Shown here: in pieces, positions 49,718 through 49,782 of the stretch
Numbering within the stretch: position 1 is the first letter of the stretch
Layout: every line of letters starts with the position of its first letter
Virus record (IMG/VR): IMGVR_UViG_3300032304_000977
Location: 64,001-128,000 of that record
Source of the DNA: a virus
Taxonomy: Duplodnaviria > Heunggongvirae > Uroviricota > Caudoviricetes
DNA length: 64,000 bases
Reading direction: 5' to 3' (one strand)
Notes under the pieces: model-generated
The model's database searches: none
Seen by the model: only the letters and a program-made list of their open reading frames with translations
What the model was told of the DNA's origin: nothing
Program-made: the position numbers and the translations under genes

Positions 49718-49782
49718 CAACAGGATCGTTTTTACGGTTTAGATTAAAAGTCTAATGTATTTTGGTTTGCTGAAGCGATCCT
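49718..49782 (-). ncRNA. Y-RNA-like RNA, copy 4, carrying a tRNA-Lys(UUU)-type anticodon arm
   Basis: AGGATCG-CTT-CAGCAA ... TTAGA-CTTTTAA-TCTAA ... CGATCCT-GTTG. Confidence 0.75.

What the first reader, a model, noticed from the sequence alone, without database searches (positions are those of the whole stretch)
49718..49782. Minimal 65-nt RNA displaying a tRNA-Lys(UUU) anticodon arm: candidate nuclease decoy
Seen: the only cargo in this motif RNA is TTAGA-CTTTTAA-TCTAA, a 5-bp stem with exactly the same 7-nt loop as the neighbouring tRNA-Lys, flanked by A-rich linkers. Established: tRNA-Lys(UUU) is the target of the anti-phage anticodon nuclease PrrC and of other toxins. Inference: a sacrificial or inhibitory mimic, possibly presented by the Ro60-like protein.
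Basis: partly seen in the sequence, partly recalled or inferred. Interest (0 to 1): 0.78.

Follow-up and report, generated by a model that had tools for sequence, protein, structure and literature searches.

The report
Anticodon-arm mimic RNA on Ro60-like handle
This 65-base phage RNA is real and conserved: a docking stem shared with the partner RNAs of a Ro60-like ring protein holds out a copy of a tRNA anticodon arm (here lysine), probably as bait for host proteins that read or cut that arm, though this function is untested.

Summary
On the minus strand, 49782-49718 folds into a 7-bp terminal stem, a UCAGCA motif, a 2-3 bp inner helix and a 5-bp stem. The stem closes the loop CUUUUAA, identical to the anticodon loop of the neighbouring tRNA-Lys.

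It is not chance. Twenty-five homologues keep the fold with compensatory changes (99% of cells paired; 0 of 500 shuffles as good). Loop positions 32, 33, 36, 37 and 38 never change, and the A31-U39 pair changes in only one of the 25.

It belongs to a large phage RNA family ("CAGCAA handle") that travels with a protein I show folds like Ro60. This scan has already met that family on many other genomes.

New here is a survey of 184 short members:
- 114 display anticodon-like arms.
- 84 of those 114 have U36, the mark of tRNAs that read ANN codons.
- Thr-UGU, Lys-UUU and Asn-GUU dominate; these are the published targets of the PARIS nuclease AriB.

Among 19 direct orthologues the "anticodon" switches between UUU, UCU, GCU and UGU. 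A strictly lysine-specific (PrrC) decoy is therefore unlikely.

A decoy or trap role remains the best guess (about 0.35), untested. Orthologues in cultured Aeromonas, Vibrio and Synechococcus phages make it testable.

The parts
49776..49782 (-). 5' strand of the terminal 'handle' stem (AGGAUCG)
   Evidence: Pairs with 49722-49728. In 25 homologues 4 of the 7 pairs change on both sides and 100% of cells pair.
49768..49773 (-). UCAGCA family motif, 2 nt after the stem
   Evidence: CAGCA is invariant in 25 homologues. It is shared with the three sister RNAs of the window and with about 440 unique family members in other phages.
49757..49759 (-). 5' strand of the inner helix (UAC); pairs with 49733-49735 (GUA)
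   Evidence: The middle pair covaries A-U (5 sequences) against G-C (15 sequences), with no unpaired cell.
49739..49755 (-). Anticodon-arm mimic: 5-bp stem UUAGA/UCUAA closing the loop CUUUUAA (UUU in the anticodon position)
   Evidence: 3 of 5 stem pairs change on both sides. Loop positions 32, 33, 36, 37 and 38 are invariant. The loop is identical to that of the tRNA-Lys at 49655-49581.
49722..49728 (-). 3' strand of the handle stem (CGAUCCU)
49718..49721 (-). Conserved 3' tail GUUG
   Evidence: GUU is invariant and the last base is G, A or U in the family.
49783..49863 (-). Upstream tRNA-Asp(GUC) and its 6-nt spacer AGUUCU: the likely source of the RNA's 5' end by tRNA processing
   Evidence: ARAGORN call. 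The order tRNA-Asp, short spacer, E4-type RNA recurs in L171, L243 and L258.
49581..49655 (-). Neighbouring tRNA-Lys(UUU) with the same loop but a G31-C39 anticodon stem
43632..45065 (-). Gene of the Ro60-fold protein (DUF2828 + DUF7788; PHROG 850), the inferred protein partner
   Evidence: Pfam and PHROGs. The AlphaFold2 model has pLDDT 82 and pTM 0.83. Foldseek matches Ro60 1yvr, 2i91 and 1yvp at E 1e-10, and Thermus phage Ro60 9kop and 9l5y.
45073..45197 (-). Sister handle RNA E1, in the leader of the Ro60-like gene
   Evidence: 34.5 bits with model R1
45213..45426 (-). Sister handle RNA E2 (stem GGGAUGG/CCAUCCC, ACAGCA)
48357..48474 (-). Sister handle RNA E3 with YrlA-like permuted tRNA cargo
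   Evidence: Sub-threshold YrlA match, 41 bits, E 3.5e-8

Best explanation
E4 is a small non-coding RNA gene of the phage's Ro60-like ribonucleoprotein system. It is made with the tRNA array and cut out by tRNA-processing enzymes (inferred).

Its terminal stem, the UCAGCA motif and the GUUG tail form a docking handle for the phage's Ro60-fold protein. This is inferred from co-occurrence, not shown.

Its only effector module is an anticodon stem-loop that keeps the signature of ANN-decoding bacterial tRNAs: A31-U39, C32, U33, U36, A37, A38 (shown). In this phage it carries the lysine anticodon UUU.

The most likely mode of action is that the particle offers this arm to a host protein that recognises anticodon arms. 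My first choice is a tRNA-cleaving defence nuclease of the AriB, PrrC or OLD kind, which would be trapped or competitively occupied. Meanwhile the phage's own tRNA-Lys, which has a changed 31-39 pair, does the decoding.

My confidence by step: family membership and selection on the mimic about 0.9; Ro60-like partner about 0.65; decoy or trap mechanism about 0.35.
For: Structure and selection:
- 25 homologues, 99.4% of cells paired, 8 of 14 pairs compensatory, 0 of 500 shuffles as good.
- The loop flanks are invariant while positions 34 and 35 vary.

Family and protein:
- About 190 handle RNAs lie in the loci around Ro60-like genes, against essentially none in related phage tRNA arrays fetched through another gene.
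- Four of four long contigs with true handle RNAs carry the gene. Two complete related phages without handle RNAs lack it.
- Orthologues sit directly upstream of the gene in L108, L159, Vibrio phage MS02 and Aeromonas phage LAh_6.
- The Ro60 fold is supported.

Mimicry:
- 114 of 184 short members carry anticodon-like arms. U36 occurs in 84 of 114, against 35% of the phages' own tRNAs.
- Thr-UGU, Lys-UUU and Asn-GUU make up 66 of 114, against 9% of tRNAs.
- A34 never occurs.
- The arm in L128, Vibrio phage EniLVp02 and Aeromonas phage LAh_6 equals the E. coli tRNA-Lys arm at 15 of 17 positions. This includes the AriB site U36-A-A-U-C|A41.

Link to defence:
- AriB of PARIS cleaves Lys-UUU, Thr-UGU and Asn-GUU, which share UAAU; phage T5 escapes by changing U39 and A41 (PMC12409363).
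- P2 OLD targets Thr-UGU (PMC12445682).
- Phage tRNA-Lys in these loci has A31-U39 in only 15 of 51 and tRNA-Thr in 2 of 62. The strict CU-NNN-AA mimics have it in 78 of 81.
- A Felixounavirus Ro60-like protein, Bas63 gp130, counters the Ppl defence (PMC11482910).
Against: - No binding, cleavage or protection data exist. There is no expression evidence either: the RNA-seq contigs laid on the region cover only tRNA parts of other organisms.
- The anticodon is not conserved among orthologues. The invariant set (C32, U33, U36, A37, A38) is also, from my memory of the literature, what the t6A37 modification machinery needs. An enzyme-recruiting role fits equally well.
- AriB also needs contacts outside the anticodon arm, in the D-loop. 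A bare arm may compete poorly.
- Bas63 gp130 works against Ppl when expressed alone in T7 or from a plasmid, without phage RNAs.
- The host of this phage and its defences are unknown.
- The counts treat unique sequences as independent, which related phages are not.
Confidence: 0.35

Rival explanations
1. Adaptor rather than decoy. The anticodon arm recruits a host or phage enzyme that normally acts on anticodon arms of ANN-decoding tRNAs. Candidates are the t6A37 machinery, TruA acting on U39, an aminoacyl-tRNA synthetase, or a repair enzyme. The enzyme is brought to the Ro60-like ring, as Y RNA tethers PNPase to Rsr.
For: Exactly the class-wide positions (C32, U33, U36, A37, A38; A31-U39 in nearly all) are fixed while 34 and 35 vary. 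One phage can carry a panel of ANN-type loops: Aeromonas phage LAh_6 has Ile-, Lys-, Ser(GCU)- and Met-like loops, and Vibrio phage MS02 has GCU, UUU and CAU. Y RNAs act as tethers, and YrlA is modified by tRNA enzymes (PMC4201824). A Thermus phage Ro60 forms a complex with its RNAs and host PNPase (PMC12135203).
Against: No candidate enzyme is encoded nearby. No RtcB or Rnl2-type ligase is found in this 90%-complete genome. The benefit to the phage is unclear. That the t6A determinants match is from my memory, not tested here.
Confidence: 0.25
2. The hairpin serves the particle itself. The loop is a second contact for the Ro60-like protein, or only gates its central cavity. Its likeness to an anticodon loop is inherited from a tRNA ancestor and has no outward target.
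For: Other short members carry loops that are not anticodon-like: 70 of 184, including about 20 with GGA-containing loops. Y RNAs gate Ro60 (PMC4201824). Bas63 gp130 acts without phage RNAs.
Against: Longer family members carry quite different cargo, so no common second contact exists. The triplets are all real anticodons, with no A34 in 81. They are strongly skewed to three tRNA species. Pure structural constraint does not predict this.
Confidence: 0.15
3. One reading: a decoy specific for tRNA-Lys(UUU) nucleases such as PrrC.
For: UUU is the commonest anticodon in the orthologous clade (11 of 19). It recurs in distant cultured phages of Aeromonas, Vibrio and Synechococcus.
Against: Orthologues on the same stems carry UCU, GCU or UGU. 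From my memory of the literature, PrrC reads the anticodon bases and their modifications. No PrrC context is known for this host.
Confidence: 0.1
4. A decayed tRNA gene, or merely a processing spacer of the tRNA array, with no function of its own.
For: It lies between two tRNAs. It has a 7-bp acceptor-like stem and an anticodon arm but no D or T arm. Neither ARAGORN nor Rfam calls it.
Against: There are compensatory changes in all three helices and invariant loop flanks across phages whose Ro60-like proteins are only about 40-84% identical. The family motif and tail are not tRNA features. Orthologues also occur outside tRNA arrays, in the leader of the protein gene.
Confidence: 0.03

Closest known systems
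Y RNAs of the YrlA type bound by bacterial and phage Ro60/Rsr (Rfam RF02553; Chen et al. 2014, PMC4201824)
   Same: A modular small RNA: the 5' and 3' ends pair into a protein-docking stem and the rest mimics tRNA. It is encoded on the same strand as, and near, a Ro60-fold protein gene. A sister RNA in this window gives a sub-threshold YrlA match. The protein is homologous to the 'Ro-like' proteins of mycobacteriophages.
   Different: The docking motif is UCAGCA next to the stem, not GNCGAAN0-1G. The cargo is only an anticodon arm, whereas YrlA mimics the T, D and acceptor parts and lacks a true anticodon loop. There is no Rfam match at E up to 10. The protein has no sequence match to solved Ro60, only a fold match.
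Class I RNAs of dictyostelid social amoebas (Kjellin et al. 2021, PMC7919456)
   Same: Same size (42-65 nt). A short covarying stem joins the two ends. A conserved motif of about 11 nt lies next to the 5' stem strand. The start is conserved (AAG there, AGG or AGA here), as is the end (CUGU there, CCUGUUG here). The rest is variable. From memory the amoebal motif contains ACAGCAA; I could not confirm the letters in the text.
   Different: Those are eukaryotic, transcribed from their own promoters, and bound by the RRM protein Rnp1A. No link to a Ro60-like protein or to tRNA mimicry is reported. Homology was not tested here.
Phage tRNAs that neutralise tRNA-cleaving defences (T5 tRNA-Lys, tRNA-Thr and tRNA-Asn against PARIS AriB, PMC12409363; phage tRNA-Thr against P2 OLD, PMC12445682)
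   Same: A phage-encoded RNA answer centred on the anticodon arms of the same tRNA species (Lys-UUU, Thr-UGU, Asn-GUU).
   Different: Those are working tRNAs that replace cleaved host tRNAs and escape by changing the arm. E4 cannot decode and keeps the host-like, cleavable-looking arm.
Bas63 gp130, a Ro60-like counter-defence protein of an E. coli Felixounavirus (PhageMaP preprint, PMC11482910)
   Same: A phage Ro60-like protein encoded directly upstream of a tRNA array. The authors guessed that some 'tRNAs' are Y RNAs. A Felixounavirus I examined (bumzen) has a homologue of the window's protein followed by four unannotated handle RNAs with the same (A/U)CAGCA motif.
   Different: The activity against Ppl needs only the protein. 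No RNA partner has been defined. The short Felixounavirus member I saw has a loop that is not anticodon-like. I did not check that gp130 itself is this homologue.

Membership tests
Phage CAGCAA-handle RNA family (partner RNAs of DUF2828/Ro60-like proteins; defined by this scan, not in the literature I could search) | Terminal stem of 6-10 bp that starts AGR (rarely GGG or UGG) and covaries | tested here: met
   AGGAUCG/CGAUCCU. Four of 7 pairs are compensatory across 25 homologues.
Phage CAGCAA-handle RNA family (partner RNAs of DUF2828/Ro60-like proteins; defined by this scan, not in the literature I could search) | (A/U)CAGCA 0-3 nt after the 5' stem strand, and a GUU(G/A/U) tail after the 3' strand | tested here: met
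   CU-UCAGCA and GUUG
Phage CAGCAA-handle RNA family (partner RNAs of DUF2828/Ro60-like proteins; defined by this scan, not in the literature I could search) | Occurs in genomes that encode the Ro60-fold DUF2828 protein | tested here: met
   The gene is at 45065-43632 on the same strand.
Phage CAGCAA-handle RNA family (partner RNAs of DUF2828/Ro60-like proteins; defined by this scan, not in the literature I could search) | Physically bound by the Ro60-like protein | not testable with these tools
   No RNA-protein modelling or binding data are available.
YrlA / Y RNA (RF02553) | Reaches the Rfam gathering score, or at least gives a significant match | tested here: not met
   No YrlA match at E up to 10 on 49640-49800.
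YrlA / Y RNA (RF02553) | GNCGAAN0-1G Ro-binding motif near the 5' end (PMC4201824) | tested here: not met
   The sequence has UCAGCA instead.
YrlA / Y RNA (RF02553) | tRNA-like domain with T and D arms | tested here: not met
   Only an anticodon-like arm is present.
YrlA / Y RNA (RF02553) | Encoded within about 4 kb of, and on the same strand as, a Ro60 orthologue | tested here: inconclusive
   Same strand, but 4.65 kb upstream of the gene. Orthologues in other phages lie directly upstream of it.
tRNA (RF00005) | Cloverleaf with D and T arms and a CCA or discriminator end | tested here: not met
   Not called by ARAGORN or Infernal. The 3' tail is GUUG.
Anticodon-nuclease decoy (a functional class, not a sequence family) | Reproduces the nuclease's recognition element on the target tRNA | tested here: inconclusive
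   It keeps U36-A-A-U-C, 5 of the 6 bases of the AriB site of E. coli tRNA-Lys. L128-type orthologues keep 6 of 6. The relevant host nuclease is unknown.
Anticodon-nuclease decoy (a functional class, not a sequence family) | Binds or is cut by the nuclease and protects host or phage tRNA | not testable with these tools
   Needs biochemistry or genetics.

The most novel reading that the evidence does not exclude
Phages use a Ro60-like ring as a display stand for an exchangeable panel of anticodon-arm mimics. Single-base changes at positions 34 and 35 re-aim each mimic. The panel acts as an RNA-based trap or inhibitor for the host's tRNA-cleaving immune nucleases (PARIS AriB, PrrC, OLD and relatives). 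That would be an RNA counterpart of protein DNA mimics such as Ocr.
Probability: 0.3. Interest if true: 0.9.

Novelty: new variant of a known kind. Interest (0 to 1): 0.74.

Why it matters
tRNA anticodon arms have recently emerged as a main target of bacterial anti-phage nucleases. The known phage answers are replacement tRNAs and RNA repair. A conserved phage RNA that shows only the anticodon arm, on a handle tied to a Ro60-like protein, would be a third answer.

It would also give the long-puzzling phage Ro60-like proteins and their tRNA-mimic RNAs a concrete job. One such protein has already been reported, in a preprint, to act as a counter-defence factor.

The survey makes the idea testable. 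The mimics keep the class signature of ANN-reading tRNAs and favour Thr, Lys and Asn. They occur in cultured Aeromonas, Vibrio and Synechococcus phages. E. coli Felixounaviruses carry other members of the handle family.

If the adaptor reading is right instead, the family would still be a new way for a virus to recruit tRNA enzymes.

Tried and rejected
- Rfam at permissive thresholds on the element gave only noise: SCARNA1, CRISPR-DR21, microRNA families.
- nhmmer with the element against 80 loci of related phages fetched through the neighbouring GATase-like gene found nothing. Those arrays contain no true handle RNAs. My first scanner also missed the element itself, because greedy stem extension swallowed the G of the tail; I fixed this.
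- A sequence search of the protein against solved structures found nothing. Only the fold search showed Ro60.
- Expression: 22 public runs hold parts of the stretch. The four clear RNA runs, laid as contigs, cover only tRNA parts from other organisms. One low-depth contig (2.9) carries a relative's handle 5' part. This is no usable evidence for or against transcription.
- Pairing of CAGC with the GUUG tail was considered and rejected. It would be a sterically impossible pseudoknot, and the tail varies (GUUA, GUUU) without any change in CAGCA.
- A terminator or promoter reading: no sigma-70-like or terminator-like site overlaps the element.
- RNA repair context: no RtcB or Rnl2-type ligase in the phage genome. 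The Rnl1 search was uninformative because its control did not ring.
- The Lys-rich 15-codon micro-ORF after the element is absent from all 18 orthologous loci, where the next tRNA or gene follows within about 10-20 nt. I therefore do not count it as part of the element.
- The neighbouring genes at 42824-43498 and 41793-42824 have no Pfam or PHROG match.

Full report
**What is there.** The window is bases 64001-128000 of a 146.6-kb, about 90% complete virus record from freshwater. It has a T4 gp59-like gene. On the minus strand it carries 27 tRNA genes and a permuted tmRNA.

On that strand, 49782-49718 reads, in short pieces: handle strand AGGAUCG, CU, UCAGCA, an A-rich linker, UAC, A, UUAGA, loop CUUUUAA, UCUAA, ACC, GUA, AAAA, handle strand CGAUCCU, tail GUUG. 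It begins 6 nt after the CCA of tRNA-Asp. It ends 62 nt before tRNA-Lys(UUU), whose anticodon loop is the same seven bases on a different stem, GCUGG/CCAGU.

It missed only the small UAC/GUA helix. Thermodynamics alone is unimpressive: -8.3 kcal/mol, z = -1.8. Neither ARAGORN nor Rfam recognises the element.

I confirmed them by eye. A scan of the whole phage genome finds exactly these four as strong hits.

Loci fetched through the neighbouring GATase-like gene contain tRNA arrays but no such RNAs. Loci fetched through the DUF2828 protein gene contain about 190 of them. A motif scan of IMG/VR added 120 more loci. The total is 441 unique family members, of which 184 have unique cargo and are shorter than 80 nt.

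I aligned 25 E4-type members.
- 99.4% of cells pair.
- 8 of 14 pairs show changes on both sides: 4 of 7 in the handle, 1 of 2 in the inner helix, 3 of 5 in the hairpin stem.
- None of 500 shuffles and no slid register comes close.
- The loop columns corresponding to tRNA positions 32, 33, 36, 37 and 38 are invariant. The closing A31-U39 pair is kept in 24 of 25.

A covariance model built from this alignment scores the window element at 79.5 bits. The element is one of the model's training rows, so that score is expected. The model also finds orthologues in cultured phages:
- Aeromonas phage LAh_6, 57.8 bits
- Vibrio phage vB_VpaP-MS02, 54.3 and 41.9 bits
- Synechococcus phage BUCT-ZZ01, 51.1 bits
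- Vibrio phage EniLVp02, 38.1 bits

**The protein.** The 477-residue product of 45065-43632 matches DUF2828 and DUF7788 and PHROG 850, "RNA-binding protein". It has no sequence match among solved structures.

An AlphaFold2 model from 29 homologues has pLDDT 82 and pTM 0.83. It matches Ro60 over its whole length: 1yvr, 2i91 and 1yvp at E about 1e-10, TM 0.64/0.59. It also matches the Ro60 of Thermus phage phiLo.

Linkage with the RNAs:
- Four of four long contigs that carry true handle RNAs encode the protein.
- A fifth contig hit by the pattern has neither.
- Two complete related phages without handle RNAs lack the gene.

The protein family occurs in 706 cultured phage records. These include E. 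coli and Salmonella Felixounaviruses and the mycobacteriophages whose "Ro-like" proteins are already linked to YrlA RNAs.

Of 183 short members with a hairpin, 81 have a stem of at least 4 bp (5 bp in nearly all) closing a loop of the form CU-NNN-AA. The background is 1.0% of 32,377 five-bp/seven-nt hairpins in the same loci. Among these 81, the closing pair is A31-U39 in 78, and position 34 is U 58, G 22, C 1, A 0.

With a slightly looser definition, 114 of 184 are anticodon-like:

| Triplet read as | Count |
|---|---|
| Thr UGU | 34 |
| Lys UUU | 22 |
| Asn GUU | 10 |
| GGA | 7 |
| Arg UCU | 5 |
| Met/Ile CAU | 4 |
| Tyr GUA | 4 |
| UGA | 4 |
| Ile UAU | 3 |
| Cys GCA | 3 |
| others | 1-4 each |

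- Position 36 is U in 84 of 114, against 35% of 1,850 tRNAs of the same phages.
- Thr-UGU, Lys-UUU and Asn-GUU together make 66 of 114, against 9% of the tRNAs.

These tests treat unique sequences as independent. Related phages are not, so the p-values overstate the case. The direction is clear all the same.

**The direct orthologues of E4.** Nineteen unique members share the flanks UACA and ACCGUA. Their triplets are UUU in 11, UCU in 5, GCU in 2 and UGU in 1.

The same stem occurs with different triplets:
- UUAGA/UCUAA with UUU or UCU
- UUUGA/UCAAA with UUU, UCU or GCU
- UUCAA/UUGAA with UGU, UUU or GUU

So the triplet has switched repeatedly while the five loop flanks never changed.

Panels also occur within one phage. 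Aeromonas phage LAh_6 has at least nine short members upstream of its DUF2828 gene, with Ile-, Lys-, Ser(GCU)- and Met-like loops. Vibrio phage MS02 has GCU, UUU and CAU.

What is conserved is the signature of tRNAs that read ANN codons, not lysine identity.

**Comparison with real tRNAs.** E. coli lysT has the arm GUUGA-CUUUUAA-UCAAU. The arm of L128-type freshwater members, Vibrio phage EniLVp02 and Aeromonas phage LAh_6 (UUUGA-CUUUUAA-UCAAA) matches it at 15 of 17 positions. The window's arm matches at 13 of 17 and keeps A31-U39.

The phages' own decoding tRNAs often do not keep that pair. A31-U39 occurs in 15 of 51 tRNA-Lys(UUU) and 2 of 62 tRNA-Thr(UGU); 30 of the latter have a U-U mismatch there. 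It occurs in 38 of 52 tRNA-Asn.

**Link to known biology.**
[quoted passage not shown] The targets share U36-A-A-U. T5 tRNA-Lys escapes by changing U39 and A41. AriB also needs contacts outside the arm (PMC12409363).
- P2 OLD cuts off the anticodon arm of tRNA-Thr(UGU). Phage tRNA-Thr escapes partly through a shorter anticodon stem (PMC12445682).
- The three tRNAs most often mimicked are thus the three best-documented targets of one defence nuclease. The mimics keep the host-like 31-39 pair that the phages' own tRNA-Lys and tRNA-Thr tend to lose. This fits a decoy or trap.

It does not prove one. From memory, the same invariant positions are the determinants of t6A37 formation. The pattern of fixed flanks with free positions 34 and 35 is also what a class-wide enzyme would impose.

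Bas63 gp130 is a Ro60-like protein encoded directly upstream of a Felixounavirus tRNA array. It counters the Ppl defence even when expressed alone (PMC11482910). A Felixounavirus I examined (bumzen) has a homologue of the window's protein, followed by four unannotated handle RNAs.

**Mechanism, with shown and inferred steps.**
- Shown: a conserved, structured element. A shared handle. Co-occurrence with a Ro60-fold protein. Selection on an anticodon-arm mimic with the ANN-class signature.
- Inferred: it is released from the tRNA precursor. The handle docks on the Ro60-like protein. The arm engages a host factor.

My preferred factor is a tRNA-arm nuclease that is trapped or outcompeted (about 0.35). 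The main rival is recruitment of a tRNA-modifying, charging or repair enzyme to the particle (about 0.25). After that comes an inward structural or gating role (about 0.15). A strictly Lys-specific PrrC decoy is unlikely (about 0.1). A dead tRNA or mere spacer is essentially excluded (about 0.03).

**Relation to known families.** It works like a Y RNA of the YrlA kind, a docking stem plus a tRNA mimic. But it fails YrlA's defining tests: no Rfam match, a different motif, and no T or D arm.

Its architecture also closely parallels the Class I RNAs of dictyostelid amoebas. Those are 42-65 nt, with a covarying stem joining the ends, an adjacent conserved motif, a conserved start and a CUGU end (PMC7919456). 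Homology was not tested.

The scan has met the handle family with its Ro60-like protein on many other genomes. I found no description of it in the searchable literature.

What this report adds:
- The minimal, arm-only member is a conserved orthologous group.
- A census of displayed anticodons.
- Repeated triplet switching among orthologues.
- The comparison with host-type and phage tRNA arms.
- A list of cultured phages in which the idea can be tested.

**Verdict.** This is a new variant of a known kind (Ro60/Y-RNA-type particles with tRNA mimics), and the decoy function is plausible but unproven.

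Noticed in passing
window 49789-49863 (-): The tRNA-Asp(GUC) just upstream is called by ARAGORN but by no Rfam tRNA match, even at E up to 10. Its T-loop reads AUCGUUA, so positions 54 and 58 appear swapped (A54/U58 instead of U54/A58). A similar '...GCGUUACC...' T-arm precedes E4-type RNAs in L171, L243 and L258.
   Followed up: partly
window 49646-49704 (-): An AGGAG ribosome-binding site and a 15-codon Lys-rich micro-ORF lie between E4 and tRNA-Lys. None of the 18 orthologous loci has it; there the next tRNA or gene follows within about 10-20 nt. It is specific to this lineage, or chance.
   Followed up: partly
related loci, e.g. L117:3302-3360, L133:3638-3695, L085:1007-1063, L282:2115-2172: About 20 short family members carry GGA-containing loops (AUUGGAA, UUGGAAU, AUGGAAA, UGCGGAU) instead, often on CUUUU/AAAAG stems. 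They resemble CsrA/RsmA-binding hairpins more than anticodon loops. tRNA-Ser(GGA) is nearly absent from these phages' arrays.
   Followed up: no
L282 (Escherichia phage bumzen, MN850635.1) 1949-2018, 2115-2172, 2502-2575, 2591-2719: Four unannotated handle RNAs lie between annotated tRNAs, right after the vWFA/DUF2828 gene of an E. coli Felixounavirus. Their stems are AGACCNN, followed by (A/U)CAGCA, with a GG tail. This is the genus of Bas63, whose Ro60-like gp130 counters the Ppl defence.
   Followed up: partly
L287 (Aeromonas phage LAh_6, MK838112.1) 287-1258: At least nine short handle RNAs lie in tandem upstream of the DUF2828 gene. Their loops are Ile(GAU)-, Lys(UUU)-, Ser(GCU)- and Met(CAU)-like, plus a GGA-type loop. 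None is annotated.
   Followed up: partly
tRNA genes of loci L082-L281: Phage tRNA-Thr(UGU) has a U31-U39 mismatch in 30 of 62 unique genes, which shortens the anticodon stem. tRNA-Lys(UUU) has G31-C39 in 32 of 51. The first recalls the 'shorter anticodon stem' by which phage tRNA-Thr resists P2 OLD (PMC12445682 abstract).
   Followed up: partly
window 50172-50200 (-): A near-consensus promoter-like site (TTGACA, 17 nt, TATGAT) lies inside the tRNA array, in the 189-nt gap between tRNA-Phe and tRNA-Gly.
   Followed up: no
window 46094-46669, 46902-47465, 48595-49290 (-): Protein genes are interspersed in the tRNA array: a 2OG-Fe(II) oxygenase, a calcineurin-like phosphoesterase (PHROG 547), and a GATase/BPL_N-like protein. 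The last is very widespread in related phages (about 600 viral contigs).
   Followed up: no
run X20 laid on window 49760-50226: One low-depth contig (2.9) of a freshwater metatranscriptome carries the 5' part of a relative's handle RNA (spacer AUUUU after a CCA end, then AGGAUGU-UA-ACAGCA). This is a faint hint that relatives' handle RNAs are present in RNA libraries; DNA carry-over is not excluded.
   Followed up: no
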